Shown: positions 1 to 26,900 of the stretch, piece by piece
How the letters are laid out: every line of letters starts with the position of its first letter
Position numbering within the stretch: the first letter of the stretch is position 1
From: the human T2T-CHM13v2.0 reference genome, Homo sapiens
Length of the DNA stretch: 64,000 nt
Reading direction: 5' to 3'
NCBI GenBank assembly: GCA_009914755.4
Contig: CP086569.2
Location: forward strand, 12,160,001 to 12,224,000
Position numbers and translations under genes: made by a program
The notes under the pieces: model-generated
Told to the model about the DNA's origin: nothing
The model's input: the letters and a program-made list of their open reading frames with translations, nothing else
The model's database searches: none

Positions 1-21
1 AATGGAATGGAACGGAATTTA

Positions 22-1398
22 ATGGAATGGAGTCGAAGGAATGGACAGGAATGTAATGGACTCCAATGGAATGGAATGTATCAAAATGGATTTGAACAGA
101 TTGGAATGGAACGGAATGGAATGCAATGAAATGGAATGGACTCGATCAGAACGGACTGGAGAGGAATGTACACAAATGGAATGGAAACGAATGGAATGCA
201 ATGAAATGGAATGGAATGCAATGGAAGTGAAAGGAGCGGAATCAAATGGAATGGAATGGAATGGAATGGAATGGATTGGAATAGAATGAATTTAAATAAA
301 ATAGAATCGATTGCAATGGTATTGAATGGAAGGGACTTGAATGGAATGGAAAGCAATGGAAGATATTGGAATCGAATGGCATCGAATGAAATGGAATGGA
401 ACGGAATGGAACGGACCCGAATGGAATGGAATGGACTCAAATGTAATGGACTCGAATGGAATCGACTGAAATATAATAGACTCGAAATGAATGGCCTCGA
501 GCGGAATTTATTTGAATAGAATGGAATCAAATGGAATACAATAGTATGGAATGGAATCGAATGGAATGGAATCGAATGGAATGTAATCAAATGGAATGGA
601 ACGGAATTCAATATAATGGAGTAGAATGGAATGCATTGGAAAGGAGCAGAGTGGAATCGAGTGGATTGGAATCGAGTGGAATGGAATCAAAGGGAACGAA
701 ATCGAATTGAATGGACTTGAATGGAATTGAGTCGAAAGGAATTGACTCGATAGGAATGGACTGGAACAAAAAGGAATCAAATGGACAGGAATGGAATGGA
801 ATGGACTCGAATGGAATGGAGTCAAATGCAAACGCATCGAATGGAATGGATTCAAATGGAATGCAATTGAATGGAATAGAAAGGAAGAGAATGGAATTGA
901 GAGTAATGGAAAGATATCGATTGGAATGAAATGGAATGGAAAGGAATTGAATGGAAAGGAATGGACTCGAAAGAAATGGATTGGAATGGAATGGTCTCCA
1001 ATGGAATGGACTGGAGTGGAATGGAATCGAATGGAAAGAAAAGAATGGAACGGAATGGAACGGAAAGGAATAGAATGTTATGGAATCCGATTGGACAGAA
1101 TGGAATGGAATGCAGTTTCATGAAATGGAGTCGAATAGAGTGGCATCAAATGAATGGAATGGAGTGGACTCAAAAGGAATGGACTCGAAAGGAATGGAGT
1201 CGAACCAAATTGAATCGAATGGATTGGAGTCGAACAGAATGGAATGGAATGGAATGAACTCGACTGGAGTAGAGAGGAATGAAAAGGAATAGAATGGAAT
1301 GTAATCAAATGGATTGCAAGTGAATGGAATCAAAAATAATAGAAAGGAATGGAGTGTAAAGGGATGATATTGAATTAAATGGAATGGAATGGAATTTA
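22..1398. repeat. Unit A copy 1 (~1377-bp HSat3 sub-repeat: ~90-bp head plus A body).
   Basis: Anchor 'atggaatggagtcgaaggaatggacaggaatgtaatggactccaatgg' at 22 recurs at 1399. The MDRNVMDSNG... ORF recurs at 41, 1418, 2796, 4174 and 5547. Confidence 0.85.
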
Positions 1399-2776
1399 AT
1401 GGAATGGAGTCGAAGGAATGGACAGGAATGTAATGGACTCCAATGGAATAGAATGGATCAAAATGGATTTGAACAGATTGGAATCGAACGGAATGGAATG
1501 CAATGAAATGGAATGGACTCGATCAGAACGGACTGGAGAGGAATGTACACAAATGGAATGGAAACGAAAGGAATGGAATGAAGTGGAATGGAATGCAATG
1601 GAATTGAAAGCAACGGAATCAAATGGAATGGAATGTATTGGAATAGAATGGATTGGAATAGAATGGATTCAAATAAAATAGAATCGATTGCAATGGTATT
1701 GAATGGAAGGGTCTTGAATGGAATGGAAAGCAATGGAAGATATTGGAATTGAATGGCATCGAATGAAATGGAATGGAACGGAATGGAACGGACCCGAATG
1801 GAATGGAATGGACTCAAATGTAATGGACTCGAATGGAATCGACTGAAATATAATAGACTCGAAAGGAATGGCCTCGAGCGGAATTTATTTGAATAGAATG
1901 GAATCAAATGGAATACAATAGTATGGAATGGAATCCAATGGAATGGAATCGAATGGAATGTAATCAAATGGAATGGAATGGAATTCAATATAATGGAGTA
2001 GATTGGAATGCATTGGAAAGGAGCAGAGTGGAATCGAGTGGATTGGAATCGAGTGGAATGGAATCAAAGGGAACGAAATCGAATTGAATGGACTTGAATG
2101 GAATTGCGTCGAAAGGAATTGACTCGAAAGGAATGGACTGGAACAAAAAGGAATCAAATGGACAGGAATGGAGTGGAATGGACTCGAATGGAATGGAGTC
2201 AAATGCAAACGCATCGAATGGAATGGATTCAAATGGAATGCAATTGAATGGAATAGAAAGGAAGAGAATGGAATTGAGAGTAATGGAAAGCTATCGATTG
2301 GAATGAAATGGAATGGAAAGGAATTGAATGGAAAGGAATGGACTCGAAAGAAATGGATTGGAATGGAATGGTCTCCAATGGAATGGACTGGAGTGGAATG
2401 GAATCGAATGGAAAGAAAAGAATGGAACGGAATGGAACGGAAAGGAATAGAATGTTATGGAATCCGATTGGACAGAATGGAATGGAATGCAGTTTCATGA
2501 AATGGAGTGGAATAGAGTGGCATCAAAAGGAATGGAATGGAGTGGACTCAAAAGGAATGGACTCGAAAGGAATGGAGTCGAACCAAATTGAATCAAACGG
2601 ATTGGAGTCGAACAGAATGGAATGGAATGGAATGAACTCGACTGGAGTAGAGAGGAATGAAAAGGAATAGAATGGAATGTAATCAAATGGATTGCAAGTG
2701 AATGGAATCAAAAATAATAGAAAGGAATGGAGTGTAAAGGGATGATATTGAATTAAATGGAATGCAATGGAATTTA
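1399..2776. repeat. Unit A copy 2 (1378 bp).
   Basis: Same anchor at 1399 and 2777. The ORF sets at 1418..1681 and 1458..1988 mirror those of copy 1. Confidence 0.85.
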
Positions 2777-4154
2777 ATGGAATGGAGTCGAAGGAATGGA
2801 CAGGAATGTAATGGACTCCAATGGAATGGAATGGATCAAAATGGATTTGAATAGATTGGAATGGAACGGAATGGAATGCAATGAAATAGAATGGACTCGA
2901 TCAGAACGGACTGGAGAGGAATGTACACAAATGGAATGGAAACGAAAGGAATGGAATGAAATGGAATGGAATGCAATGGAATTGAAAGCAACGGAATCAA
3001 ATGGAATGGAATGTATTGGAATAGAATGGATTGGAATAGATTGGATTCAAATAAAATAGAATCGATTGCAATGGTATTGAATGGAAGGGACTTGAATGGA
3101 ATGGAAAGCAATGGAAGATATTGCAATTGAATGGCATCGAATGAAATGGAATGGAACGGAATGGAACGGACCCGAATGGAATGGAATGGACTCAAATGTA
3201 ATGGACTCGAATGGAATCGACTGAAATATAATAGACTCGAAAGGAATGGCCTCGAGCGGAATTTATTTGAATAGAATGGAATCAAATGGAATACAATAGT
3301 ATGGAATGGAATCCAATGGAATGGAATCGAATGGAATGTAATCAAATGGAATGGAATGGAATTCAATATAATGGAGTAGATTGGAATGCATTGGAAAGGA
3401 GCAGAGTGGAATCGAGTGGACTGGAATCGAGTGGAATGGAATCAAAGGGAACGAAATCGAATTGAACGGACTTGAATGGAATTGAGTCGAAAGGAATTGA
3501 CTCGAAAGGAATGGACTGGAACAAAAAGGAATCAAATGGACAGGAATGGAATGGAATGGACTCGAATGGAATGGAGTCAAATGCAAACGCATCGAATGGA
3601 ATGGATTCAAATGGAATGCAATTGAATGGAATAGAAAGGAAGAGAATGGAATTGAGAGTAATGGAAAGATATCGATTGGAATGAAATGGAATGGAAAGGA
3701 ATTGAATGGAAAGGAATGGACTCAAAAGAAATGGATTGGAATGGAATGGTCTCCAATGGAATGGACTGGAGTGGAATGGAATCGAATGGAAAGAAAAGAA
3801 TGGAACGGAATGGAACGGAAAGGAATAGAATGTTATGGAATCCGATTGGACAGAATGGAATGGAATGCAGTTTCATGAAATGGAGTCGAATAGAGTGGCA
3901 TCAAAAGGAATGGAATGGACTGGATTCAAAAGGAATGGACTCGAAAGGAATGGAGTCGAACCAAATTGAATCAAATGGATTGGATTCGAACAGAATGGAA
4001 TGGAATGGAATGAACTCGACTGGGGTAGAGAGGAATGAAAAGGAATAGAATGGAATGTAATCAAATGGATTGCAAGTGAATGGAATCAAAAATAATAGAA
4101 AGGAATGGAGTGTAAAGGGATGATATTGAATTAAATGGAATGGAATGGAATTTA
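2777..4154. repeat. Unit A copy 3 (1378 bp).
   Basis: Anchor at 2777 and 4155. The ORF sets are repeated. Confidence 0.85.
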
Positions 4155-5527
4155 ATGGAATGGAGTCGAAGGAATGGACAGGAATGTAATGGACTCCAAT
4201 GTAATGGAATGGATCAAAATGGATTTGAACAGATTGGAATCGAACGGAATGGAATGCAATGAAATGGAATGGACTCGATCAGAACGGACTGGAGAGGAAT
4301 GTACACAAATGGAATGGAAACGAAAGGAATGGAATGAAATGGAATGGAATGCAATGGAATTGAAAGGAACGGAATCAAATGGAATGGAATGGAATGGAAT
4401 GGATTGGAATAGAATGGATTCAAATAAAATAGAATCGATTGCAATGGTATTGAATGGAAGGGACTTGAATGGAATGGAAAGCAATGGAAGATATTGGAAT
4501 CGAATGGCATCGAATGAAATGGAATGGAACGGAATGGAACGGACCCGAATGGAATGGAATGGACTCAAATGTAATGGACTCGAATGGAATCGACTGAAAT
4601 ATAATAGACTCGAAAGGAATGGCCTCGAGCGGAATTTATTTGAATAGAATGGAATCAAATGGAATACAATAGTATGGAATGGAATCGAATGGAATGGAAT
4701 CGAATGGAATGTAATCAAATGGAATGGAACGGAATTCAATATAATGGAGTAGAATGGAATGCATTGGAAAGGAGCAGAGTGGAATCGAGTGGATTGGAAT
4801 CGAGTGGAATGGAATCAAAGGGAACGAAATCGAATTGAATGGACTTGAATGGAATTGCGTCGATAGGAATTGACTCGAAAGGAATGGACTGGAACAAAAA
4901 GGAATCAAATGGACAGGAATGGAATGGAATGGACTCGAATGGAATGGAGTCAAATGCAAACGCATCGAATGGAATGGATTCAAATGGAATGCAATTGAAT
5001 GGAATAGAAAGGAAGAGAATGGAATTGAGAGTAATGGAAAGATATCGATTGGAATGAAATGGAATGGAAAGGAATTGAATGGAAAGGAATGGACTCGAAA
5101 GAAATGGATTGGAATGGAATGGTCTCCAATGGAATGGACTGGAGTGGAATGTAATCGAATGGAAAGAAAAGAATGGAACGGAATGGAACGGAATGGAATA
5201 GAATGTTATGGAATCCGATTGGACAGAATGGAATGGAATGCAGTTTCATGAAATGTATTGGAATATAGTGGCATCAAAAGGAATGGAATGGAGTGGACTC
5301 AAAAGGAATGGACTCGAAAGGAATGGAGTCGAACCAAATTGAATCAAATGGATTGCAGTCGAACAGAATGGAATGGAATGGAATGAACTCGACTAGAGTA
5401 GAGAGGAATGAAAAGGAATAGAATGGAATGTAATCAAATGGATTGCAAGTGAATGGAATCAAAAATAATAGAAAGGAATGGAGTGTAAAGAGATGATATT
5501 GAATTAAATGGAATGGAATGGAATTTA
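4155..5527. repeat. Unit A copy 4 (1373 bp).
   Basis: Anchor at 4155 and 5528. It carries a small internal indel relative to copies 1-3: the 'gaagtgaaaggagcggaatcaaatgg' stretch is shortened. Confidence 0.8.
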
Positions 5528-6875
5528 ATGGAATGGAGTCGAAGGAATGGACAGGAATGTAATGGACTCCAATGGAATGGAATGGATCAAAATGGATTTG
5601 AATAGATTGGAATGGAACGGAATGGAATGCAATGAAATGGAATGGACTCGATCAGAACGGACTGGAGAGGAATGTACACAAATGGAATGGAAACGAAAGG
5701 AATGGAATGAAATGGAATGGAATGCAATGGAATTGAAAGGAACGGAATCAAATGGAATGGAATGGTATGGAATGGATTGGAATAGAATGGATTCAAATAA
5801 AATAGAATCGATTGCAATGGTATTGAATGGAAGGGACTTGAATGGAATGGAAAGCAATGGAAGATATTGGAATCGAATGGCATCGAATGAAATGGAATGG
5901 AACGGAATGGAACGAACCCGAATGGAATGGAATGGACTCAAATGTAATGGACTCGAATGGAATCGAATGAAATATAATAGACTCGATAGGAATGGCCTCG
6001 AGCGGAATTTATTTGAATAGAATGGAATGAAATGGAATACAATAGTATGGAATGGAATCGAATGGAATGGAATCGAATGGAATGTAATCAAATGGAATGG
6101 AACGGAATTCAATATAATGGAGTAGAATGGAATGCATTGGAAAGGAGCAGAGTGGAATCGAGTGGATTGGAATCGAGTGGAATGGAATCAAAGGGAACGA
6201 AATCGAATTGAACGGACTTGAATGGAATTGAGTTGAAAGGAATTGACTCGAAAGGAATGGACTGGAACAAAAAGGAATCAAATGGACAGGAATGGAATGG
6301 AATGGACTCGAATGGAGTGGAGTCAAATGCAAACGCATCGAATGGAATGGATTCAAATGGAATGCAATTCAATGGAATAGAAAGGAAGAGAATGGAATTG
6401 AGAGTAATGGAAAGATATCGATTGGAATGAAATGGAATGGAAAGGAATTGCATAGAAAGGAATGGACTGGAAAGAAATGGATTGGAATGGAATGCTCTCC
6501 AATGGAATGGACTGGATTGGAATGGAATCGAATGGAATGTAAAGAATGGAACGGAATGGAACGGAAAGGAATAGAATGTTATGGAATCCGATTGGACAGA
6601 ATGGAATGGAATGGAGTTTCATGAAATGGAGTCGAACAGAGTGGCATCAAAAGGAATGGAATGGAATGGAGTGGACTCAAAAGGAATGGACTCGAAAGGA
6701 ATGGAGTCGAACAGAATGGAATGGAATGGAATGAACTCGACTGGAGTAGAGAGGAATGTAAAGGAATAGAATGGAATGTAATCAAATGGATTGCAAGTGA
6801 ATGGAATCAAAAATAATAGAAAGGAATGGAGTGTAAAGAGATGATATTGAATAAAAGGGAATGGAATAGAATTTA
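5528..6875. repeat. Unit A copy 5 (1348 bp). This is a transitional copy whose 3' part is already of the HOR type.
   Basis: The head anchor is at 5528. The tail at 6580-6720 lacks the 33-bp 'caaattgaatc[ga]aatggattggagtcgaac' that copies 1-4 have, and it matches the A-body tail of HOR copies H1, H2 and H4. Confidence 0.75.
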
Positions 6876-9800
6876 ATGGAATGGAGTCTCAGGAATGGAC
6901 AGGAATGTAATGGACTCCAATGGAATGGAATGGATCAAAATGGATTTGAACAGATTGGAATCGAACGCAATGGAATGCAATGGAATGGAATGGACTCGAA
7001 TGGAGAAGAGACAAATGGAATGGAAACGAATTCAATGGAATTGAAAAGAATAGAATGGAATGGCCTGTAATGGTAAGATACTAAATGGAATGGAATTGAA
7101 TGGAATGTAGTTTAATGGACCCAAATGTAATGCACTCGAATGGAATATACTGAAATAGAATGGAATCGAAAGGAAAGGTCTCAAATGGAATTTCTTCAAT
7201 ATAATGGAATCGAATGGAATGCAATAGAATGGAAAGGAATCGAATGTAATGGAATCAAATAGAATGGACCAGAATGGAATGGACTGCGATAGAACGTACT
7301 GCAGTGTAAAGGATTGAATTCTAATTCATTCAAATGGAATGGAATTGAATGGAATGGAATCCAATGGAATGGATAGGATTGTACTGGAATGGAATAGCAT
7401 GGAATGCAACGGAGTGGAATGGAGTTGAATGAAGTGGAATGGAATCGATTGGAATGGAATCAAATGGAATGGACGGGAATGGAATGGACTGGAAGAGAAC
7501 AGACTCGAATATAATGGATTGCAATGTAATTGATTGAAATGGAATGGAATCAAATGGAATGTAATAAAATTGAAGGGATTGGAGTTCAATGCAATGAAAT
7601 AGAATGGAATGCAAAGGAAAGGAAAGGCACGGAGTGAAATCGAGTGTAATGGAATCGAATGGAATGAAATCGAATGGAATGGACTCAAAAGAAATGGACG
7701 AGGGACAAAACGGAATCGAACTGTTTGGAATCGAATGGAACGGAATGGAATGGAATGGTCTCCATTGGATGGGAGTAGAACGGATTGGAATGAAATGGAA
7801 TGGAAAGGAATAGAATGGAATGGAAAGGAATGGAAGGTAATGGAAAGATATCGAACGGATTGGAAAGGAATGGAATGGACGCTAATGGAATGGAGTGAAA
7901 TTCAACAGAAACGAATGGAATGGACAGGAGTGAAATGGAGTCGAATGTAATTGACTGGAGAGGAATGGGCTCGAAAGGAATGGACTCAAATAGAATGGAC
8001 TGGAATGGATTGTACTCGAATGGAGTGGAAAGGAATAAAATGGATTCCACCAGATTGGAATGGAACAGAATGTAATGGAATGGAATGGAATGCAATGGAA
8101 TGGCTCGAATGGAATGGAGTCGAATGCAATGGAAGAGAAAGGAAAGGAATTGGATGGAATTGAAAGTAATAGAATGAAATGGAGTGCAAAGGAAAGATAT
8201 CGAATGGAATGGATCGAAAAGAAATAGAATGGAATTGACAGGAATGGAATGGAATAGAATGGAATAGACTGGCGTGAAATGAAAACGAATGGAATGGAAA
8301 CGAATGGAATGGAATGGAAAGGAATGGAGTAGAATAAATACTATGGAATGGAATGGAATGGAATGGAATGGAGGCGAAAGGAAAAGAATGGATTGGAATG
8401 TCACCGAATGGAAAGATATGGAATGGAAAGGAATGGATACGAATGGAATGGAATAGAAAGGAACGGAAAGGTAAAGAATGGAATGGAATCGGATAGAATG
8501 GAATGCAATGTAATGGAGTCGAATGGAAAATAATCGAGTAGAATGATATCGAATGGAATGGAATGGAATGGACTCGAATGGAATGTACTCAAATGGATTA
8601 GAATAGAATGGAATGGAACTAAACGTAATGAACTCGAATGGAATGGACACAAATAGAATGGAAGAGAAAGGAATGGTATTGAATGGAATTTATTCGAATA
8701 GAATGGAATTCAATGGAATGCAACAGTGTGGCATGGAATCAAATGGAATGGAATCGAATGGAATGGACCCGAGTGGAATGGACTCACATAGAACAGCCTC
8801 GAATGTAATGGATGACAATGTATTAGATTCGAAAGGACTGAAATCGAATGGAATGTAATCAAATAGAACGGAATTGAATGCATGGAATGGCATAGAAAGT
8901 AATGCAATGGAATGGAATAGACTGGAATGGAATGGAATCGGATGGAATGTAATGAAATGTAATGGAAGGAATGCCATGGAATGGAATGGAATGGAATGCA
9001 ATGGCCCGGTGTATAATGGAGTGCAATGGATTTCAGTGGAATGTAGTCAAAAGGAATGAAATAGAATGGAATTCAATATAATGGAATGGCATCCAATGGC
9101 AAGGAATGGAGCGGACTCCAATGGAAACGACATGAAAGGAATATAATATAATGGAATGGCATTGAACGAAATGGAATGCAATGGGGTTAAAAGGTAAAAT
9201 ATCGAATGGAAAAGAATTGAATGGACTCGAATGGAATATAATGGAATGGAATGGTCTCGAATGGAATGTACTAGAGTTGAATGGAATCGAATGGAATGGA
9301 AAACAATGGAAAGGAAAGGAAGGGAATTGAAAGGAAAGGAATAGAATGGAATGGAATCGGATGGAACAGAATTGAATGGAATGGAAACTAAAGGAATAGA
9401 ATAGAAAGCAATGGCATTGAATGGAATGGAAATGAATGGAATCAGATGGAACAGAAAGGAATGGAATGGCATCGAATGGATTGGAATGGAATGTAATGGA
9501 ATGGAATGGAAAGGAATGGAATGGACTCAAATGGAATGTACTCAAATGGAATAGAATAGAATGGAATAGAAGTAAATATAATGGACTCGAGAGGAATGGA
9601 TTGGAATAAATTGGAATTGAATGTATTGGATTCGAATGGAAAGGAATGGAATGGAATGGAATGGAATGGATTCGAATGGAATGGAACGAATTGGAATGTA
9701 ATTGAATGGAGTCGAAAACAGTAGAAAGAAAAGAAGTTTAATCGAATGATATCGAATGGAATTGAATGGAATGTACGCGAATGGAATGGACTGGAATGGA

Positions 9801-15300: not shown

Positions 15301-17872
15301 AATGGAATGGAATGACATGTAATGGAATCGAAAGGAATGGAATCGAATGAAATGGAATTGAATGGAATAGAAAGGAATAGAATGGAATGGAGTTTAATGG
15401 AAAGATATTAAAAGTAATGGAATGGAATTGAGTGGACACAAATGGAATGGACTGGAATGGAAAGGACTCGAATGAAATGGAGCGCATTAGAATGGACTCG
15501 AATGGAACGGATTGGTGTGGAATTGTCTCGAATGGATTGGAAACGAATGGAATGGAAAAGAATAGAATGGAATGTAATCAAATGGAACGAAATGGAATGG
15601 AATGGATTCGACTGAAACAGAATTAACTGGAGTGGAATTGAATGGAATGGAATGCAATCGAATGGAATGGACACGAATGGAATAGAATGAAATGAAATGG
15701 CATAGAATGGAATGGAATGGAATGGAATGGAATGGAATGGAATGGAATGGAATGGAATGGAATGCATTGGAATGGAATGGAATGGCATGGCATGGAATGG
15801 AATGGCATGGAATGAAATGGATTGGAATGGAATGGGTCCAAAAGTAATGGACTCAAATAAAAGGGACTGAAATAGAATGAATTGTAAAGAAACGGTCTCG
15901 AATGTAATTTATTCGAATAGAATGATATTGAATGGAATGCGATAGTGTAGAATGGTATCGAATAGAATGGAATGGAATGGAACGGAATGGAGTGCATTTG
16001 AACGGACTCAAATGCAATAAATTGCAATATAATTGATTCAAATGGAATGAAATCGAATAGAATGTAAACAAATGGAATGGAAGGCAATGCAATGGAAAGG
16101 AATCGAATGAAATGGAATAAATGGGATGGAATCGAATGGAAAGGACGCGAATATAATGGACTGTTAAGGAAAGGTCTCGAATCGAATTTATTCCAATAGA
16201 ATGGAATCGAATGGAATGCAATACTATTGAATCGAATCGAATGGAATGGAATTGAATGGAATGGACAGGAATGGAATGAACTGGAAGTGAATGGACAAGA
16301 ACGTAATATATTGCAATGTAATTTATTCAAATGGAATGGAAAGCAATCGAATGGAATGGACGCGATTGCAATGGACTGGAGTGGAATGGACTGAAATGGA
16401 ATGGAAACGAATGCAATGGAATGGAAAGGAAAGCAAAGGAATCTACCCGAATGGAATCGAACGGAACAGAAAGGAATGGAATAGAATGGAGTGGAATGGA
16501 CTCGAATGGAATGTATTTGAATGTAATGGACCTGAAAGGAATGTAATCCAATGGAATGGAATTGAATGGAATCAAAAGGAATAGAAAGGAATAGAGTGTA
16601 ATTGAATGATATCGAATGGAAGGGAATGGAATGAAGTCGAATGGAATGCACTGGAATGGAATGGACTCGATCAGAACGGACTGGAGAGGAATGTACACAA
16701 ATGGAATGGAAACGAATGGAATGGAATGAAATGGAATTGAAAGGAACGGAATCAAATGGAATGGAATGGAATGGAATGGATTGGAATAGAATGGATTCAA
16801 ATAAAATAGAATCGATTGGAATGGTATTGAAAGGAAGGGACTTGAATGGAATGGAAAGCAATGGAAGATATTGGAATCTAATGGCATCGAATGAAATGGA
16901 ATGGAACGGAATGGAACGAACCCGAATGGAATAGAATGGACTCAAATGTAATGGACTCGAATGGAATCGACTGAAATATAATAGACTCGAAAGGAATGGC
17001 CTCGAGCGGAATTTATTTGAATAGAATGGAATCAAATGGAAAACAATAGTCTGGAATGGAATGGAATCGAATGGAATGTAATCAAATGGAATGGAACGGA
17101 ATTCAATATAATGGAGTAGAATGGAATGCATTGGAAAGGAGCAGAGTGGAATCGAGTGGATTGGAATCGAGTGGAATGGAATCAAAGGGAACGAAATGGA
17201 ATTGAATGGACTTGAATGGAATTGAGTGGAAAGGAATTGACTCGAAAGGAATGGACTGGAACAAAAAGGAATCAAATGGACAGGAATGGAATGGAATGGA
17301 CTCGAATGGAGTGGAGTCAAATGCAAACGCATCGAATGGAATGGATTCAAATGGAATGCAATTCAATGGAATAGAAAGGAAGAGAATGGAATTGAGAGTA
17401 ATGGAAAGATATCGATTGGAATGAAATGGAATGGAAAGGGATTGCATGGAAAGGAATGGACTCGAAAGAAATGGATTGGAATGGAATGGTCTCCAATGGA
17501 ATGGACTGGAGTGGAATGGAATCGAATGGAATGAAAAGAATGGAACGGAATGGAACGGAAAGGAATAGAATGTTATGGAATCCGATTGGACAGAATGGAA
17601 TGGAATGGAGTTTCATGAAATGGAGTCGAATAAAGTGGCATCAAAAGAAATGGAATGGAATGGAGTGGACTCAAAAGGAATGGACTCGAAAGGAATGGAG
17701 TCGAACAGAATGGAATGGAATGGAATGAACTCGACTGGAGTAGAGAGGAATGTAAAGGAATAGAACGGAATGTAATCAAATGGACTGCAAGTGAATGGAA
17801 TCAAAAATAATAGAAAGGAATAGAGTGTAAAGGGATGATATGGAATAAAATGGAATGGAATGGAATTTAATG
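12365..17872. repeat. HSat3 HOR copy H2 (5508 bp, early-type b).
   Basis: Anchor at 12365 and 17873. It shares the 'gggtcc' variant (loss of GGGCCC) and the 'CGIV' peptide variant with H3. Confidence 0.85.
15706..15771. repeat. Pure (AATGG)n tract of about 13 units (in H2). The homologous tract is 5-11 units long in other HOR copies.
   Basis: An uninterrupted aatggaatgg... run. Homologous tracts lie at about 10217-10263 (H1), 21226-21263 (H3), 27266-27310 (H4), 43846-43870 (H7), 54976-55027 (H9) and 60556-60610 (H10). Confidence 0.8.
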
Positions 17873-20800
17873 GAATGGAGTCTCAGGAATGGACAGGAAT
17901 GTAATGGACTCCAATGGAATGGAATGGATCAAAATGGATTTGAACAGATTGGAATCGAACGCAATGGAATGCAATGGAATGGAATGGACTCGAATGGAGA
18001 AGAGACAAATGGAATGGAAACGAATTCAATGGAATTGAAAAGAATAGAATGGAATGGCGAGTAATGGTAAGATACTAAATGGAATGGAATTGAATGGAAT
18101 GTAGTGAAATGGACGCAAATGTAATGCACTCGAAAGGAATATACTCAAATAGAATGGAATCGAAAGGAAAGGTCTCAAATGGAATTTATTCAATACAATG
18201 GAATCGAATGGAATGCAATAGAATGGAAAGGAATCGAATGTAATGGAATCAAATAGAATGGACCAGAATGGAATGGACTGCCATAGAACGGACTGCAGTG
18301 TAAAGGATTGAATTCTAATTCATTCAAATGGAATGGAATTGAATGGAATGGAATCCAATGGAATGGATAGGATTGTACTGGAATGGAATAGCGTGGAATG
18401 CAACGGAGTGGAAAGGAGTTGAATGAAGTGGAATGGAATCGATTGGAATGGAATCAAATGGAATGGACGGGAATGGAATGGACTGGAAGAGAACAGACTC
18501 GAATATAATGGATTGCAATGTAATTGATTCAAATGGAATGGAATCGATTGGAATGTAATAAAATTGAAGGGATTGGAGTTCAATGCAATGAAATAGAATG
18601 GAATGCAAAGGAAACGAAAGGCACGGAGTGAAATCGAGTGTAATGGAATCGAATGGAATGAAATCGAATGGAATGGACTCAAAAGAAATGGACGAGGGAC
18701 AAAACGGAATCAAACTGATTGGAATCGAATGGAACGGAATGGAATGTAATGGTCTCCATTGGATGGGAGTAGAACGGATTGGAATGAAATGGAATGGAAA
18801 GGAATAGAATGGAATGGAAAGGAATGGAAGGTAATGGAAAGATATTGAACGGATTGGAAAGGAATGGAATGGACGCTAATGGAATGGAGTGGAATTCAAC
18901 AGAAACGAATGGAATGGACTGGAGTGAAATGGAGTCGAATGTAATTGACTGGAGAGGAAGGGGCTCGAAAGGAATGGACTCGAATAGAATGGACTGCAAT
19001 GGATTGTACTCGAATGGAGTGGAAAGGAATAAAATGGATTCCACGAGATTTGAATGGAACAGACTGAAATGGAATGGAATGGAATGCAATGGAATGGCTC
19101 GAATGGAATGGAGTCGAATGCAATGGAAGAGAAAGGAAAGGAATTGGACAGAATTGAAAGTAATAGAATTAAATGGAGTGCAAAGGAAAGATATCGAATG
19201 GAATGGATCGAAAAGAAGGAGAATGGAATGCACAGGAATGGAATGTAATAGAATGGAATAGACTGGCGTGCAATGAAAACGAATGGAAGGGAAACGAATG
19301 GAATGGAATGGAAAGGAATGGAGTAGAATAAATACTATGGAATGGAATGGAATGGAATGGAATGGAATGGAGGCAAAAGGAAAAGAATGGATTAGAATGT
19401 CACCGAATGGAAAGATATGGAATGGAAAGGAATGGATACGAATGGAATGGAATAGAAAGGAACGGAAAGGTAAAGAATGGAATGGAATAGGATAGAATGG
19501 AATGCTATGTAATGGAGTCGAATGGAAAATAATCGAGTAGAATGATATCGAATGGAATGGAATGGAATGGAATGGACTCGAATGGAATGTACTCAAATGG
19601 ATTAGAATAGAATGGAATGGAACTAAACGTAATTAACTCGAATGGAATGGGCACAAATAGAATGGAAGAGAAAGGAATGGTATTGAATGGAATTTATCCG
19701 AATAGAATGGAATTCAATGGAATGCAACAGTGTGGCATGGAATCAAATGGAATGGAATCGAATGGAATGGACCCGAGTGGAATGGACTCACATAGAACAG
19801 CCTCGAATGTAATGGATTACAATATATTAGATTCGAAAGGACTGAAATCGAATGGAATGTAAAAAAATAGAACGGAATTGAATGCATGGAATGGCATAGA
19901 AAGTAATGCAATGGAATGGAATAGACTGGAATGGAATGGAATCGGATGGAATGTAATGAAATGTAATGGAAGGAATGCCATGGAATAGAATGGAATGGAA
20001 TGCAATGGGACGGTGTATAATGGAGTGCCATGGATTTCAGAGGAATGCAGTCAAAAGGAATGAAATAGAATGGAATTCAATAAAATGGAATGGCATCCAA
20101 TGGCAAGGAATGGAGCGGACTCCAGTGGAAACGACATGAAAGGAATATAATATAATGGAATGGCATTGAACGAAATGGAAAGCAATGGAGTTAAAAGGTA
20201 AAATATCGAATGGAATAGAATTGAATGGACTCGAATGGAATATAATGGAATGGAATGGATTCGAATGGAATGTACTAGAGTTGTATGGATTCGAATGGAA
20301 TGGAAAACAATGGAAAGAAAGGAAGGGAATTGAAAGGAAAGGAATAGAATGGAATGGAATCGGATGGAACAGAATTGAATGGAATGGAAATTAAAGGAAT
20401 AGAATAGAAAGGAATGGCATTGAATGGAATGGAAATGAATGGAATCAGATGGAACAGAAAGGAATGGAATAGAATCGAATGGAATGGCAACGAACGGATT
20501 GGAATGGAATGTAATGGAATGGAATGGAAAGGAATGGAATGGACTCAAATGGAATGTACTCAAATGGAATAGAATAGAATGGAATGGAAGTAAATATAAT
20601 GGACTCGAGTGGAATGGATTGGAATAAATTGGAATTGAATGTATTGGATTCGAATGGAAAGGAATGGAATGGAATGGAATGGAATGGAATGGATTCGAAT
20701 GGAATGGAACGAATTGGAATGTAATTGAATGGAGTCGAAAACAGTAGAAAGAAATAAAGTATAATCGAATGATATCGAATGGAATTGAATGGAATGTACG

Positions 20801-23800
20801 CGAATGGAATGGACTGGAATGGAATGGAATGACATGTAATGGAATCGAAAGGAATGGAATCGAATGAAATGGAATTGAATGGAATAGAAAGGAATAGAAT
20901 GGAATGGAGTTTAATGGAAAGATATTAAAAGTAATGGACTGGAATTGAGTGGACACAAATGGAATGGACTGGAATGGAAAGGACTCGAATGAAATGGAGC
21001 GCATTAGAATGGACTCGAATGGAACGGATTGGTGTGGAATTGTCTCGAATGGATTGGAAACGAATGGAATGGAAAAGAATAGAATGGAATGTAATCAAAT
21101 GGAACGAAATGGAATGGAATGGATTCGACTGAAACAGAATTAACTGGAGTGGAATTGAATGGAATGGAATGCAATCGAATGGAATGGACACGAATGGAAT
21201 AGAATGAAATGAAATGGCATAGAATGGAATGGAATGGAATGGAATGGAATGGAATGGAATGGATTGGAATGGAATGGAATGGCATGGCATGGAATGGAAT
21301 GGCATGCAATGAAATGGATTGGAATGGAATGGGTCCAAAAGTAATGGACTCAAATAAAAGGGACTGAAATAGAATGAATTGTAAAGAAACGGTCTCGAAT
21401 GTAATTTATTCGAATAGAATGATATTGAATGGAATGCGATAGTATAGAATGGTATCGAATAGAATGGAATGGAATGGAACGGAATGGAGTGCATTTGAAC
21501 GGACTCAAATGCAATAAATTGCAATATAATTGATTCAAATGGAATGAAATCGAATAGAATGTAAACAAATGGAATGGAAGGCAATGCAATGGAAAGGAAT
21601 CGAATGAAATGGAATAAATGGGATGGAATCGAATGGAAAGGACGCGAATATAATGGACTGTTAAGGAAAGGTCTCGAATCGAATTTATTCCAATAGAATG
21701 GAATCGAATGGAATGCAATACTATTGAATCGAATCGAATGGAATGGAATTGAATGGAATGGACAGGAATGGAATGAACTGGAAGTGAATGGAGAAGAACG
21801 TAATATATTGCAATGTAATTTATTCAAATGGAATGGAAAGCAATCGAATGGAATGGACGCGATTGCAATGGATTGGAGTGGAATGGACTGAAATGGAATG
21901 GAAACGAATGTAATGGAATGGAAAGGAAAGCAAAGGAATCTACCGGAATGGAATCGAACGGAAGAGAAAGGAATGGAATAGAATGGAGTGGAATGGACTC
22001 GAATGGAATGTATTCGAATGTAATGGACCTGAAAGGAATGTAATAAAATGGAATGGAATTGAATGGAATCAAAAGGAATAGAAAGGAATAGAGTGTAATT
22101 GAATGATATCGAATGGAAGGGAATGGAATGAAGTCGAATGGAATGCACTGGAATGGAATGGACTCGATCAGAACGGACTGGAGAGGAATGTACAGAAATG
22201 GAATGGAAACGAATGGAATGAAAAGAATGGAACGGAATGGAATGGAAAGGAATAGAATGTTATGGAATCCGATTGAACAGAATGGAATGGAATGCAGTTT
22301 CATGAAATGGAGTCGAATATAGTGGCATCAAAAGGAATGGAATGGAGTGGACTCAAAAGGAATGGACTCGAAAGGAATGGAGTCGAACCAAATTGAATCA
22401 AATGGATTGGAGTCGAACAGAATGGAATGGAATGGAATGAACTCGACTGGAGTAGAGAGGAATGTAAAGGAATAGAATGGAATGTAATCAAATGGATTGC
22501 AAGTGAATGGAATCAAAAATAATAGAAAGGAATGGAGTGTAAAGGGATGATATTGAATTAAATGGAATGGAATGGAATTTAATGGAATGGAGTCGAAGGA
22601 ATGGACAGGAATGTAATGGACTCCAATGGAATGGAATGGATCAAAATGGATTTGAACAGATTGGAATCGAACGGAATGGAATGCAATGAAATGGAATGGA
22701 CTCGATCAGAACGGACTGGAGAGGAATGTACACAAATGGAATGGAAACGAAAGGAATGGAATGAAATGGAATGGAATGCAATGGAATTGAAAGGAACGGA
22801 ATCAAATGGAATGGAATGGAATGGAATGGATTGGAATAGAATGGATTCAAATAAAATAGAATCGATTGGAATGGTATTGAATGGAAGGGACTTGAATGGA
22901 ATGGAAAGCAATGGAAGATATTGGAATCGAATGGCACCGAATGAAATGGAATGGAACGGAATGGAACGGACCCGAATGGAATGGAATGGACTCAAATGTA
23001 ATGGACTCGAATGGAATCGACTGAAATATAATAGACTCGAAAGGAATGGCCTCGAGCGGAATTTATTTGAATAGAATGGAATCAAATGGAATACAATAGT
23101 ATTGAATGGAATGGAATGGAATGGAATCGAATGGAATGTAATCAAATGGAATGGAACGGAATTCAATATAATGGAGTAGAATGGAATGCATTGGAAAGGA
23201 GCAGAGTGGAATCGAGTGGATTGGAATCGAGTGGAATGGAATCAAAGGGAACGAAATCGAATTGAATGGACTTGAATGGAATTGAGTCGAAAGGAATTGA
23301 CTCGAAAGGAATGGACTGGAACAAAAAGGAATCAAATGGACAGGAATGGAATGGAATGGACTCGAATGGAGTGGAGTCAAATGCAAACGCATCGAATGGA
23401 ATGGATTCAAGTGGAATGCAATTGAATGGAATAGAAAGGAAGAGAATGGAATTGAGAGTAATGGAAAGATATCGATTGGAATGAAATGGAATGGAAAGGA
23501 ATTGCATGGAAAGGAATGGACTCGAAAGAAATGGATTGGAATGGAATGGTCTACATTGGAATGGACTGGAGTGGAATGGAATCGAATGGAATGAAAAGAA
23601 TGGAACCGAATGGGACGGAAAAGAATAGAATGTTATGGAATCCGATTGGACAGAATGGAATGGAATGGAGTTTCATGAAATGGAGTCGAATAGAGTGGCA
23701 TCAAAAGGAATGGAATCGAATGGAGTGGACTCAAAAGGAATGGACTCGAAAGGAATGGAGTCGAACAGAATGGAATGGAATGGAATGAACTCGACTGGAG

Positions 23801-23932
23801 TAGAGAGGAATGTAAAGGATTAGAATGGAATGTAATCAAATGGATTGCAAGTGAATGGAATCAAAAATAATAGAAAGGAATGGAGTGTAAAGGGATGATA
23901 TTGAATAAATTGGAATGGAATGGAATTTAATG
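17873..23932. repeat. HSat3 HOR copy H3 (6060 bp, early-type b). It is enlarged by about 550 bp through an embedded A-type unit duplication.
   Basis: Anchors at 17873 and 23933. All internal anchors keep a spacing of about 5.5 kb up to roughly 22140. After that comes a deleted partial A and then a full head-plus-A unit. Confidence 0.85.
22140..23932. repeat. Embedded tandem-A-type segment inside H3. It consists of a partial A (22140-22581, with an internal deletion of about 0.9 kb) and a full head-plus-A unit (22582-23932).
   Basis: At about 22205-22225 the A body jumps from '...gtacagaaatggaatggaaacgaatggaatg' directly to 'aaaagaatggaacgg...', which is A-tail sequence. The unit-A head 'atggaatggagtcgaaggaatggacagg' follows at 22582. 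Both pieces carry the 33-bp 'aaccaaattgaatca...' allele seen in A copies 1-4. Confidence 0.75.
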
Positions 23933-26900
23933 GAATGGAGTCTCAGGAATGGACAGGAATGTAATGGACTCCAATGGAATGGAATGGATCAAAATGGATT
24001 TGAACAGATTGGAATCGAACGCAATGGAATGCAATGGAATGGAATGGACTCGAATGGAGAAGAGACAAATGGAATGGAAACGAATGCAATGGAATTGAAA
24101 AGAATAGAATGGAATGGCGTGTAATGGTAAGATACTAAATGGAATGGAATTGAATGGAATGTAGTGGAATGGACCCAAATGTAATGCACTCGAATGGAAT
24201 ATACTCAAATAGAATGGAATCGAAAGGAAAGGTCTCAAATGGAATTTATTCAATACAATGGAATCGAATGGAATGCAATAGAATGGAAAGGAATCGAATG
24301 TAATGGAATCAAATAGAATGGACCAGAATGGAATAGACTGCCATAGAACGGACTGCAGTGTAAAGGATTGAATTCAAATTCATTCAAAAGGAATGGAATT
24401 GAATGGAATGGAATCCAATGGAATGGATAGGATTGTACTGGAATGGAATAGCATGGAATGCAACGGAGTGGAATGGAGTTGAATGAAGTGGAATGGAATC
24501 GATTGGAATGGAATCAAATGGAATGGACGGGAATGGAATGGACTGGAAGAGAACAGACTCGAATATAATGGATTGCAATGTAATTGATTCAAATGGAATG
24601 GAATCGAATGGAATGTAATAAAATTGAAGGGATTGGAGTTCAATGCAATGAAATAGAATGGAATGCAAAGGAAAGGAAAGGCACGGAGTGAAATCGAGTG
24701 TAATGGAATCGAATGGAATGAAATCGAATGGAATGGACTCAAAAGAAATGGGCGAGGGACAAAACGGAATCGAACTGATTGGAATCGAATGGAACGGAAT
24801 GGAATGTAATGGTCTCCATTGGATGGGAGTAGAACGGATTGGAATGAAATGGAATGGAAAGGAATAGAATGGAATGGAAAGGAATGGAAGGTAATGGAAA
24901 GATATCGAACGGATTGGAAAGGAATGGAATGGACGCTAATGGAATGGAATGGAATTCAACAGAAACGAATGGAATGGACTGGAGTGAAATGGAGTCGAAT
25001 GTAATTGACTGGAGAGGAATGGACTCGAAAGGAATGGACTCGAATAGAATGGACTGGAAAGGATTGTACTCGAATGGAGTGGAAAGGAATAAAATGGATT
25101 CCACCAGATTGGAATGGAACAGAATGTTATGGAATGGAATGGAATGCAATGGAATGTCTCGAATGGAATGGAGTCGAATGCAATGGAAGAGAAAGGAAAG
25201 GAATTGGATGGAATTGAAAGTAATAGAATTAAATGGAGTGCAAAGGAAAGATATCGAATGGAATGGATCGAAAAGAAATAGAATGGAATGGACAGGAATG
25301 GAATGGAATAGAATGGAATAGACTGGCGTGCAATGAAAACGAATGGAATGGAAACGAATGGAATGGAATGGAAAGGAATGGAGTAGAATAAATACTATGG
25401 AATGGAATGGAATGGAATGGAATGGAGGCGAAAGGAAAAGAATGGATTGGAATGTCACCGAATAGAAAGGTATGGAATGGAAAGGAATGGATACGAATGG
25501 AATGGAATAGAAAGGAACGGAAAGGTAACAATGGAATGGAATCGGATAGAATGGAATGCAATGTAATGGAGTCGAATTGAAAATAATCGAGTAGAATGAT
25601 ATCGAATGGAATGGAATGGAATGGAATGGACTCGAATGGAATATACTCAAATGGATTAGAATAGAATGGAATGGAACTAAACGTAATGAACTCGAATGGA
25701 ATGGACACAAATAGAATGGAAGAGAAAGGAATGGTATTGAATGGAATTTATTCGAATAGAAAGGAATTCAATGGAATGCAACAGTGTGGCATGGAATCAA
25801 ATGGAATGGAATCGAATGGAATGGACCCGAGTGGAATGGACTCACATAGAACAGCCTCGAATGTAATGGATGACAATGTATTAGATTCGAAAGGACTGAA
25901 ATCGAATGGAATGTAATCAAATAGAACGGAATTGAATGCATGGAATGGCATAGAAAGTAATGCAATGGAATGGAATAGAATGGAATGGAATGGAATCGGA
26001 TGGAATGTAATGAAATGTAATGGAAGGAATGCCATGGAATGGAATGGAATGGAATGCAATGGGACGGTGTATAATGGAGTGCCATGGATTTCAGTGGAAT
26101 GTAGTCAAAAGGAATGAAATAGAATGGAATTCAATATAATGGAATGGCATCCAATGGCAAGGAATGGAGCGGACTCCAATGGAAACGACATGAAAGGAAT
26201 ATAATATAATGGAATGGCAATGAACGAAATGGAATGCAATGGGGTTAAAAGGTAAAATATCGAATGGAAAAGAATTGAATGGACTCGAATGGAATATAAT
26301 GGAATGGAATGGACTCGAATGGAATGTACTAGAGTTGAATGGAATCGAATGGAATGGAAAACAATGGAAAGGAAAGGAAGGGAATTGAAAGGAAAGGAAT
26401 AGAATGGAATGGAATCGGATGGAACAGAATTGAATGGAATGGAAACTAAAGGAATAGAATAGAAAGGAATGGCATTGAATGGAATGGAAATGAATGGAAT
26501 CAGATGGAACAGAAAGGAATGGAATGGCATGGAATGGATTGGAATGGAATGTAATGGAATGGAATGGAAAGGAATGGAATGGACTCAAATGGAATGTACT
26601 CAAATGGAATAGAATAGAATGGAATGGAAATAAATATAATGGACTCGAGTGGAATGGATTGGAATAAATTGGAATTGAATGTCTTGGATTCGAATGGAAA
26701 GGAATGGAATGGAATGGAATGGAATGGAATGGAATGGATTCGAATGGAATGGAACGAATTGGAATGTAATTGAATGGAGTCGAAAACAGTAGCAAGAAAA
26801 GAAGTTTAATCGAATGATATCGAATGGAATTGAATGGAATGTACGCGAATGGAATGGACTGGAATGGAATAGAATGACATGTAATGGAATCGAAAGGAAT

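What the first reader, a model, noticed from the sequence alone, without database searches (positions are those of the whole stretch)
22140..23932. The 6.06-kb HOR copy H3 contains the same head-plus-A junction in single copy, plus an internally deleted A
All H3 anchors keep 5.5-kb spacing up to about 22140. From there an A body is truncated by a deletion of about 0.9 kb (junction near 22205-22225). It is followed by a complete head-plus-A unit (22582-23932) before the next B head. Both pieces carry the 33-bp 'aaccaaattgaatca...' allele of A copies 1-4 rather than the allele of neighbouring H2 and H4. This could be the progenitor or a relic of the expansion seen at 1-6875, or an independent recurrence at the same breakpoint. 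Either reading points to a rearrangement hotspot at the head sequence.
Basis: seen in the sequence. Interest (0 to 1): 0.5.

Follow-up and report, generated by a model that had tools for sequence, protein, structure and literature searches.

The report
Partial repeat duplication in HSat3 satellite
One 6.06-kb copy of a roughly 5.5-kb human satellite-3 repeat carries an extra 538 bp, a remnant of the same internal duplication that forms a 1.37-kb sub-repeat array nearby; this is ordinary satellite-DNA turnover and not evidence of a breakage hotspot.

Summary
The window is a (GGAAT)n-derived human satellite 3. It carries the diagnostic 24-mer of the Y-specific subfamily HSat3A3. Layout: a tandem array of a 1.37-kb segment "A" (1-6997), then ten ~5.5-kb units, each made of A plus R.

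The structural observation holds. H3 (6060 bp) is canonical up to 22220. Junction J1 (11-bp microhomology, 22210-22220) joins A column 55 to A column ~895, so ~0.84 kb is missing. An A tail follows (22221-22703), then the A-tail/A-head junction J2 (22687-22705), then a complete A (22704-24051).

Two details are wrong:
- The indel allele is 30 bp, not 33.
- Only the truncated piece carries it (22378-22407).

The truncated tail clusters with array copies A1-A4 (87% bootstrap) and shares private variants with them. The complete A clusters with H4 (96%).

J2 in H3 is therefore identical by descent with the array's J2, not an independent recurrence. J2 also occurs in 17 human-derived metagenome contigs.

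The junction homologies are commonplace: 244 exact repeat pairs of ≥19 bp per unit. No secondary structure is predicted at either junction. The hotspot claim is unsupported.

Verdict: ordinary unequal-exchange or deletion variation in a nested tandem repeat. Whether H3 is a relic or a progenitor stays unresolved.

The parts
1..6997 (+). Tandem array of the A segment. It is cut by the left edge of the window. A-head motifs sit at 144, 1521, 2899, 4277 and 5650. Units A1-A4 are 1373-1378 bp. The last unit, A5 (5650-6997), ends in the native tail.
   Evidence: Spacing of 1377/1378/1373 bp; motif map; unit lengths.
22130..22165 (+). Native sequence upstream of A (end of R2). It shows that H3 enters its A segment normally.
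   Evidence: The preA motif matches exactly at 22130, as in the other units. Alignment to H2 is identical up to 22220 apart from one base at 22195.
22166..22220 (+). First 55 bp of an A unit (H3a head, alignment columns 0-54), native type with T at column 48.
22210..22220 (+). Junction J1: the 11-bp microhomology CGAATGGAATG. It joins A column ~54 to A column ~895, so 835-840 bp of the unit are missing.
   Evidence: Head-specific A at 22209 and tail-specific AAAAG from 22221. The exact junction 32-mer occurs once in the window.
22221..22703 (+). H3a tail: 483 bp of array-type A tail (columns 895-1382).
   Evidence: 7-12 mismatches and no indels (one 1-bp gap against A1) against A1-A4. Against A5, H1, H2, H3b and H4: 9-18 mismatches plus 35 gap columns. 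The clade with A1-A4 has 87% bootstrap. 4 of 483 mismatches to the array-type consensus in human-derived metagenome contigs.
22378..22418 (+). The 30-bp indel allele (22378-22407) plus the second copy of its flanking 11-bp direct repeat TGGAGTCGAAC (22408-22418).
   Evidence: Present in A1-A4, H3a and H5-H10. Absent in A5, H1, H2, H3b and H4.
22687..22705 (+). Junction J2: the 19-bp crossover homology TGAAATGGAATGGACTCGA between A tail and A head. It carries the J2-private G-to-A change at 22689.
   Evidence: The J2 tail motif with this A occurs only at 109, 1486, 2864, 4242, 5615 and 22669; sequence read. The same junction is in 17 human-associated metagenome contigs.
22704..24051 (+). H3b: a complete A unit (1348 bp). 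It has J2-type A at column 48. From column 170 onward it matches the local native haplotype (H4-like), and it lacks the 30-bp allele.
24046..24072 (+). Native A-tail to R junction (start of R3).
   Evidence: The natTail motif matches exactly.

Best explanation
WHAT IT IS. The window is human satellite 3, subfamily HSat3A3 by its diagnostic 24-mer. That subfamily is reported as Y-specific. It is organised as a kb-scale nested tandem repeat whose unit is A (~1.35 kb) plus R (~4.2 kb).

STEP 1. An out-of-register exchange once occurred at a 19-bp homology present both just upstream of A and at the end of A. It produced a tandem A-A junction, J2. That junction-bearing unit was amplified into a 1.37-kb-period array (1-6997, probably continuing to the left of the window).

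STEP 2. Unit H3 holds one copy of this same J2, identical by descent with the array's.

STEP 3. A second, separate event made J1. It joined column ~54 of the first A to column ~895 at an 11-bp microhomology. H3 was left with 0.4 + 1 A copies and 538 extra bp.

MY COMMITTED READING (about 50% among the sub-scenarios). H3 once held at least two full A copies joined by J2. It acquired them by descent from a double-A unit or by repeat-templated repair from the array. It then lost 0.84 kb (plus any multiple of 1.37 kb) by an intra-array slippage or unequal sister-chromatid deletion. On this reading H3 is a collapsed relic or sister lineage. It is not a recurrence, and it has no function beyond being satellite DNA.

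SHOWN: the anatomy, both junctions, shared descent of J2, and the local identity of the complete A.
INFERRED: the order of events, the mechanism, and the Y-chromosome location.
For: FAMILY
- Pentamer composition fits satellite 3.
- The HSat3A3-specific 24-mer from Table 1 of PMC4022460 occurs 14 times exactly, once per A tail. The other 13 subfamily 24-mers have no exact match.
- The J2 42-mer occurs in 17 contigs of human-associated (human gut, human skin) metagenomes. Their A units are about 99% identical to array unit A4.

ANATOMY
- Motif map and alignments.

SHARED DESCENT OF J2
- Private states shared by H3a and A1-A4: a 5-bp deletion at columns 1008-1012, T1238, A1368, C969 and the +30 allele. 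A48 is shared on the right side of J2.
- Bootstrap support is 87% for the clade A1-A4 + H3a.
- Gapless 2002-bp alignment to 5145-7146.

SISTER RATHER THAN NESTED
- H3a lacks the array-wide A1144 and H3b lacks the array-wide C170.
- A1-A4 excluding H3a has 57% bootstrap, which is weak.

COMPLETE UNIT IS LOCAL
- H3b + H4 has 96% bootstrap.

COMMONPLACE SUBSTRATES
-.

KNOWN CONTEXT
- Altemose et al. describe nested tandem repeats in HSat2/3 'evolving and expanding hyper-locally' (10.1101/2021.07.12.452052).
- Unequal exchange is documented in Y satellites (10.1101/2022.12.01.518724).
Against: - The direction and order of events are not resolved.
- The R segment after the array (R0) and the one after H3 (R3) share no private sites. 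Descent of H0 and H3 from one double-A unit therefore has no independent support.
- H3b is not specially close to A5 (2.1-2.4%, against 1.24% in the body and 2.40% in the tail to H4, and 1.39% / 2.18% to H1).
- The sister-lineage inference rests on two or three sites.
- J1 was not found in any public contig searched. As a result J1 has no confirmation independent of this assembly.
- Subfamily assignment rests on one published 24-mer. Chromosome assignment is taken from the literature.
- The metagenome contigs are short-read assemblies and may collapse repeats.
Confidence: 0.75

Rival explanations
1. A single unequal sister-chromatid exchange. An array unit's tail (column ~895) joined the A head (column ~54) of a downstream unit at the 11-bp microhomology. 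This created J1 directly and duplicated everything in between: about 17 kb with today's spacing, or one unit if H1-R1-H2-R2 were inserted later. On this reading J1 is not a deletion.
For: - Bases 22199 to about 25400 stay in gapless register with 5145 to about 8346, at roughly 2.3% mismatch.
- R0's nearest relative is R3 (1.67%).
- R1 and R2 form a derived pair with 25 private sites and could be a later insertion.
Against: - The predicted paralogy fails beyond R3. R4 against R1 is 2.38% (R4 against R3 is 1.55%), and R5 against R2 is 3.61%, among the largest distances in the matrix.
- The 15-bp and 10-bp deletions shared by H1 and H2 are absent from H4 and H5.
- R0 and R3 share no private site.
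- H3b groups with H4, and A5 groups with H1/H2.
Confidence: 0.12
2. A one-step templated insertion. A break near column 55 of H3's single A was repaired off an array unit, by synthesis-dependent strand annealing or template switching. The repair copied head, J2 and 483 bp of tail, then rejoined at the 11-bp microhomology.
For: - The array-type tract in H3 is short. It runs from column 895 of the tail through J2 to column 48 of H3b. From column 170 H3b is local-type.
- H3a is only 4 of 483 bases from the array-type consensus.
- No large duplication is required.
Against: - The copied strand would contain the perfect 55-nt head homology. In-register annealing should therefore beat an 11-nt microhomology (inference).
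- C170 could simply have arisen in the array after the split.
- H3a lacks the array-wide A1144, although a donor could lie left of the window.
Confidence: 0.1
3. Independent recurrence of the A-A duplication at a rearrangement hotspot in the head sequence.
For: - J2 forms at a 19-bp homology that would give the same apparent breakpoint each time.
- J1's left breakpoint lies 55 bp from J2's right breakpoint.
Against: - The J2-linked tail in H3 carries array-private variants and the +30 allele. All neighbouring native tails (A5, H1, H2, H3b, H4) lack them.
- 87% bootstrap places H3a with the array copies.
- Comparable homologies are abundant in the unit.
- No structure is predicted at the junctions.
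- The 55-bp proximity has a post-hoc chance of about 8%.
Confidence: 0.02
4. Assembly artefact. The 6.06-kb copy is a mis-join of reads from the A array and from a normal unit.
For: - J1 is single-copy in the window.
- J1 was not found in the metagenome or genome contig collections.
Against: - The region has its own private substitutions on both sides of J1 and J2.
- H3b is H4-like rather than a copy of A5.
- The flanks are collinear.
- A single-copy junction is not expected in low-coverage human contamination, so its absence from public contigs carries little weight.
Confidence: 0.03

Closest known systems
Nested tandem repeats (NTRs) of human satellites 2 and 3, for example the ~3.6-kb DYZ1/HSat3A6 unit and the 1.77-kb chr1 HSat2 unit (Altemose et al., 10.1101/2021.07.12.452052; PMC4022460; 10.1101/2022.12.01.518724)
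   Same: - A kb-scale repeat unit built from diverged (CATTC)n pentamers with no discrete monomers.
- Periodicity that changes locally within an array ('evolving and expanding hyper-locally').
- Evolution by unequal exchange.
   Different: - The unit here is ~5.5 kb, with a 1.37-kb sub-segment that forms its own array.
- I did not find this periodicity or the J2 junction described in the texts I could read.
HSat3A3, the Y-specific HSat3 subfamily of Altemose et al. 2014 (PMC4022460)
   Same: [quoted passage not shown] No other subfamily's 24-mer matches exactly.
   Different: - Only one diagnostic k-mer was available to test.
- The chromosomal location, and any equivalence with DYZ17 or with the pericentromeric Y HSat3 block (10.1101/2022.12.01.518658), could not be tested here.
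Structural-variant units of alpha-satellite higher-order repeats, produced by unequal crossing-over (Smith-type model; my background knowledge)
   Same: - Variant units that gain or lose part of the repeat through out-of-register exchange at internal homologies.
- Variants shared by descent among nearby units.
   Different: Alpha-satellite HORs are made of discrete ~171-bp monomers, so exchanges are monomer-phased. Here there are no monomers beyond the pentamer, and the junctions use 11-19-bp chance homologies.
The hybrid 2.7-kb repeat in the DYZ18 region, derived from parts of DYZ18 and DYZ1 units (Hallast et al., 10.1101/2022.12.01.518658)
   Same: A Y-linked satellite unit created by joining parts of existing kb-scale units, then amplified as its own array.
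   Different: That repeat joins two different satellite units. Here, two parts of the same unit are joined.

Membership tests
Human satellite 3 (HSat3) | Derived from the (CATTC)n / (GGAAT)n pentamer, with strand-asymmetric composition | tested here: met
   - TRF reports periods 5/10/15 across the whole window.
- GC skew is about +0.6 throughout.
- Exact GGAAT covers 30% of bases, and the top five pentamers are rotations of GGAAT.
Human satellite 2 (HSat2) | Subfamily-specific 24-mers of HSat2A1, HSat2A2 and HSat2B (PMC4022460, Table 1) | tested here: not met
   No matches, even with 2 mismatches allowed. ATCATCGAATGG-type motifs are absent.
HSat3A3 subfamily | Presence of the subfamily-specific 24-mer CTTTACACTCCATTCCTTTCTATT | tested here: met
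   14 exact matches (as the reverse complement), once per A tail, including 22521 and 23869. Three more matches appear with 1-2 mismatches. The ten other HSat3 subfamily 24-mers have no exact match.
HSat3A3 subfamily | Localisation to the human Y chromosome | not testable with these tools
   No human genome is searchable here. Human origin is supported indirectly: J2-bearing contigs come from human gut and skin metagenomes.
Nested tandem repeat (NTR, sensu Altemose et al.) | A kb-scale tandem unit that is not composed of discrete monomers of similar length | tested here: met
   Periods are 5.49-5.59 kb. The A unit matches the rest of the unit only at the pentamer background level of about 68% in any register.
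   No sub-unit periodicity was found between the pentamer and 1.37/5.5 kb, apart from an old 205-bp internal duplication.
Recombination or rearrangement hotspot | Independent, recurrent breakpoints at the same site | tested here: not met
   The J2 copies share private flanking variants, so they represent one event.
Recombination or rearrangement hotspot | A sequence or structural feature that sets the site apart from the rest of the repeat | tested here: not met
   - DNA folding z-scores are +0.9 to +1.3 at both junctions on both strands.
- The 19-mer occurs 5 times per unit.
- There are 244 maximal exact repeat pairs of ≥19 bp per unit.
Structured RNA families (Rfam) | A match at or above the gathering score | tested here: not met
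   No matches in 16000-30000.

The most novel reading that the evidence does not exclude
The first ~55 bp of the A segment (GATCAGAACGGACTGGAGAGGAATGTACA...) may be a genuine preferred breakpoint region in this satellite. It is the least pentamer-like stretch near both junctions. On this reading both the amplification of a 1.37-kb sub-array and its later partial collapse were seeded there. That would give a sequence-defined site from which new periodicities nucleate in a non-recombining Y-linked array.
Probability: 0.05. Interest if true: 0.4.

Novelty: new member of a known kind. Interest (0 to 1): 0.15.

Why it matters
It matters little beyond bookkeeping.

It is a clean, base-resolved example of how kb-scale periodicities in human satellite 3 change. 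A sub-segment is duplicated at a chance 19-bp homology and amplified into its own array. A copy of the same junction sits three units away, partly deleted at an 11-bp microhomology.

If the Y-chromosome assignment is right, every step must be intrachromosomal (sister-chromatid or intrachromatid). J1 would then be a single-copy, phylogenetically datable marker inside an otherwise hard-to-align array. Such a marker would be useful for anchoring alignments of this satellite across Y haplogroups.

It does not reveal a new mechanism or element.

Tried and rejected
1. I looked for a sub-structure of the 5.5-kb unit as four A-like 1.38-kb blocks (4 × 1377 = 5508). It was rejected. A matches the rest of the unit only at the ~68% pentamer background.

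2. I tested a 17-kb block duplication (5145-22220 copied to 22199-39274). It was not supported beyond R3.

3. MAFFT initially placed the 55-bp head of the partial unit inside the tail. I redid the alignment with head and tail as separate fragments.

4. An Rfam scan of 16000-30000 found nothing.

5. An inverted-repeat search and DNA folding at J1 and J2 found nothing above shuffles.

6. A search for the J1 46-mer in metagenome contigs and genome contigs gave 0 hits. The J2 42-mer in genome contigs also gave 0 hits.

7. The literature gave no published 5.5-kb or 1.37-kb period for this subfamily in the texts held. The PMC id I recalled for the Science version of Altemose et al. is not held.

8. 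I considered that near-matches to the HSat3A4 24-mer might link A to the 1366-bp pTRS-47 repeat. Those matches lie in R, not A.

9. The double-A contigs (L005, L010, L014, L015) cannot be taken as proof of a two-copy progenitor. Short-read assemblers collapse tandem arrays.
Full report
WHAT THE WINDOW IS

All 64 kb are a diverged (GGAAT)n satellite. TRF finds periods of 5, 10 and 15 bp across the whole window. GC is 0.37-0.39 and GC skew is about +0.6 throughout. Exact GGAAT covers 30% of bases.

I tested the published most-common subfamily-specific 24-mers for the 14 HSat2/3 subfamilies (PMC4022460, Table 1). Only the HSat3A3 24-mer matches exactly. It matches 14 times, once per A unit. HSat3A3 is described as Y-specific.

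A 42-mer spanning junction J2 occurs in 17 contigs of human-associated (human gut, human skin) metagenomes, which I read as human contamination. The sequence is therefore human satellite 3. It is probably Y-linked, but I could not test chromosomal location. Rfam finds nothing in 16000-30000.

LAYOUT

K-mer spacing and motif maps give the following:

- A tandem array of a 1.37-kb segment A occupies 1-6997. A-head motifs lie at 144, 1521, 2899, 4277 and 5650. Units A1-A4 are 1373-1378 bp. A5 ends in the native tail.
- The array is cut by the left edge of the window.
- Ten units of A (1323-1363 bp) plus R (4143-4237 bp) follow.
- Unit lengths are 5486, 5508, 6060, 5491, 5510, 5531, 5521, 5590, 5586 and 5581 bp.
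- A has no detectable relatives in R beyond the ~68% pentamer background. In the terms of Altemose et al. this is a nested tandem repeat, not a monomer-based HOR.

THE OBSERVATION

- H3 matches H2, apart from one base at 22195, up to 22220, then departs.
- From 22199 it aligns to the tail of A. The match is best, and gapless, to the array end: 22199-24200 against 5145-7146, with 49 mismatches in 2002 bp.
- Junction J1 is the 11-bp microhomology CGAATGGAATG at 22210-22220. The base before it (22209) is head-specific. The bases after it (from 22221) are tail-specific. The junction sequence is unique in the window.
- The partial unit, 22166-22703, is 538 bp, so 835-840 bp are missing.
- Junction J2 is the 19-bp homology TGAAATGGAATGGACTCGA at 22687-22705.
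- A complete A follows at 22704-24051 (1348 bp), then the native tail-to-R junction at 24046.

WHAT IS WRONG IN THE OBSERVATION

- The 'aaccaaattgaatca' allele is a 30-bp indel, not 33 bp. It is bounded by an 11-bp direct repeat, TGGAGTCGAAC.
- It is present at 1203, 2581, 3959 and 5332 (A1-A4), at 22386 (the truncated piece), and in H5-H10.
- It is absent from A5, H1, H2, H4 and the complete H3 unit.
- So only one of the two H3 pieces carries it, and it is not specific to the array.

RELATIONSHIPS OF THE TWO H3 PIECES

I aligned all 15 full A units plus the H3 fragments.

- The H3 partial tail differs from A1-A4 by 7-12 of 483 bases with no indels (one 1-bp gap against A1).
- It differs from A5, H1, H2, H3b and H4 by 9-18 bases plus 35 gap columns.
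- States shared only with array units: a 5-bp deletion at columns 1008-1012, T at column 1238, and A at column 1368. The last is base 22689, inside the J2 homology.
- It also shares C at column 969 and the +30 allele, which only H5 (column 969) or H5-H10 (+30) share among native units.
- To the right of J2, H3b shares A at column 48 with A2-A5. The native-flanked heads (H3a and H4-H10; the site is deleted in H1/H2) have T there.
- Neighbour-joining with 500 bootstraps, substitutions only, gives 87% for the clade A1-A4 + H3a tail. It gives 96% for H3b + H4.
- In the body, A1-A4 form an 82% clade that excludes H3b.

The truncated piece is therefore array-type and the complete piece is local-type.

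IS J2 IN H3 AN INDEPENDENT RECURRENCE?

No. A duplication arising locally from H2/H3/H4-type alleles would have a tail without the 30 bp and without the array-private variants.

J2 is also old and widespread. Contigs assembled from human DNA in metagenomes carry it. Their A units are about 99% identical to array unit A4, with no gaps. The H3 tail is 4 of 483 bases from that consensus, compared with 3, 6, 5 and 10 for A1-A4.

This also suggests that the array-type A is a high-copy unit and that the array continues left of the window.

Several contigs show preA-A-J2-A-native tail. Short-read assemblers collapse tandem copies, so I do not read that as a two-copy unit.

PROGENITOR, RELIC OR TRANSFER?

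H3a lacks the A at column 1144 that all window array copies, and the array-type consensus units in the metagenome contigs, carry. H3b lacks the array-wide C at column 170. This places the H3 copy as a sister to the visible array copies rather than nested among them. However, that rests on two or three sites, with only 57% bootstrap.

I tested the idea that J1 arose from one unequal sister-chromatid exchange that duplicated about 17 kb.

- R0 is closest to R3 (1.67%), but the two share no private site.
- That closeness is explained by R1 and R2 sharing 25 derived sites.
- R4 against R1 (2.38%) and R5 against R2 (3.61%) contradict the predicted paralogy.
- H1 and H2 share 15-bp and 10-bp deletions that H4 and H5 lack.

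A one-step templated insertion fits the short array-type tract. It would require out-of-register annealing at 11 nt in preference to the 55-nt in-register homology, which I judge unlikely (inference).

I therefore favour a two-step history. H3 held at least two A copies joined by the inherited J2, then lost 0.84 kb (plus n × 1.37 kb) by slippage or unequal exchange at the microhomology. My estimates:

| Scenario | Probability |
|---|---|
| Two-step relic (favoured) | ~50% |
| Single unequal exchange | ~12% |
| One-step templated insertion | ~10% |
| Assembly artefact | ~3% |
| Independent recurrence | ~2% |
| Unresolved mixtures | remainder |

HOTSPOT CLAIM

One junction inherited twice is one event. 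The junction homologies are commonplace:

- The J2 19-mer occurs five times per unit.
- One unit holds 244 maximal exact repeat pairs of ≥19 bp.
- 53% of positions share an 11-mer with another position in the same unit.

Neither junction region folds better than shuffled sequence on either strand, with z-scores of +0.9 to +1.3.

The only residue is that J1's left breakpoint lies 55 bp from J2's right breakpoint. In a 1377-bp unit that has a post-hoc chance of about 8%.

COMPARISON WITH WHAT IS KNOWN

This is the behaviour already described for HSat2/3 nested tandem repeats, whose periodicity varies and expands hyper-locally. It also fits Y-linked satellites evolving by unequal exchange, including hybrid units that become arrays. 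I found no description of this particular 5.5-kb unit, its 1.37-kb sub-array or J1/J2 in the texts I could read. It is a new instance of a known kind.

VERDICT

- The structural observation is essentially right.
- The allele statement is half wrong.
- The hotspot and recurrence interpretations are not supported.
- Interest is low (0.15).
- The main practical value is that J1 is a single-copy marker inside a satellite array.

Noticed in passing
window 1-6997, and loci L001-L017: The A array runs off the left edge of the window. Human-derived metagenome contigs assemble an array-type A consensus that is about 99% identical to A4. The published 'most common' HSat3A3 24-mer also lies in the A tail. 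Together these suggest the 1.37-kb array is a large, high-copy domain, and that the window sits at its boundary with the 5.5-kb domain.
   Followed up: partly
window 35053-64000 versus 6998-33689: The units fall into two haplotype groups. R0-R4 differ from R5-R9 by about 3%. The rightmost copies are nearly identical (R8 against R9 0.17%; R7 against R8/R9 about 0.8%). This points to a very recent local amplification at the right end.
   Followed up: partly
window 11161-22165 (H1, R1, H2, R2): R1 and R2 share 25 private substitutions. The A units of H1 and H2 share a 15-bp deletion (columns 46-60) and a 10-bp deletion (columns 405-414). They form a derived pair lying between the A array and H3.
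   Followed up: partly
A-unit alignment columns 672-1382; for example window 6321-6997, 23371-24051 and 28862-29542: A5, H1, H2, H3b and H4 share a haplotype block over the last ~700 bp of A: G672, C806, no 30-bp allele, and TC at columns 1274-1275. A1-A4, H3a and H5-H10 carry the other block. The last array unit, A5, switches from array-type to local-type between columns 404 and 672.
   Followed up: partly
window 33690-35052 (A of H5): H5's tail is the closest native relative of the array-type tails. The clade A1-A4 + H3a + H5 has 85% bootstrap, and H5 shares C969 and the C-variant of the 30-bp allele. The J2-linked tail may therefore derive from an H5-like allele.
   Followed up: no
window 18217-18661, and the equivalent position about 225-665 bp into every R copy: An old 205-bp internal tandem duplication (~78% identity) is present in all ten R copies. 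TRF reported it in R2 only.
   Followed up: yes
window 17809 and 29360: The HSat3A3 diagnostic 24-mer is disrupted by one substitution in H2 and in H4. K-mer-based copy counts would therefore slightly undercount units.
   Followed up: no
loci L012 (natTail at 65 to preA at 6249), L015, L006: In some metagenome contigs the R-like segment is longer (~6.2 kb) or only 82-85% identical to the window's R. These are either diverged unit variants elsewhere in the family or chimeric short-read consensus.
   Followed up: no
locus L008, 1885-3269: This contig shows preA followed by an A with a native-type head and body (T48, G170, T404) and a largely array-type tail (A893, C969, A1144, T1238, A1368, but without the 5-bp deletion) running into J2. 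That is the structure expected at the left boundary of an A array.
   Followed up: partly
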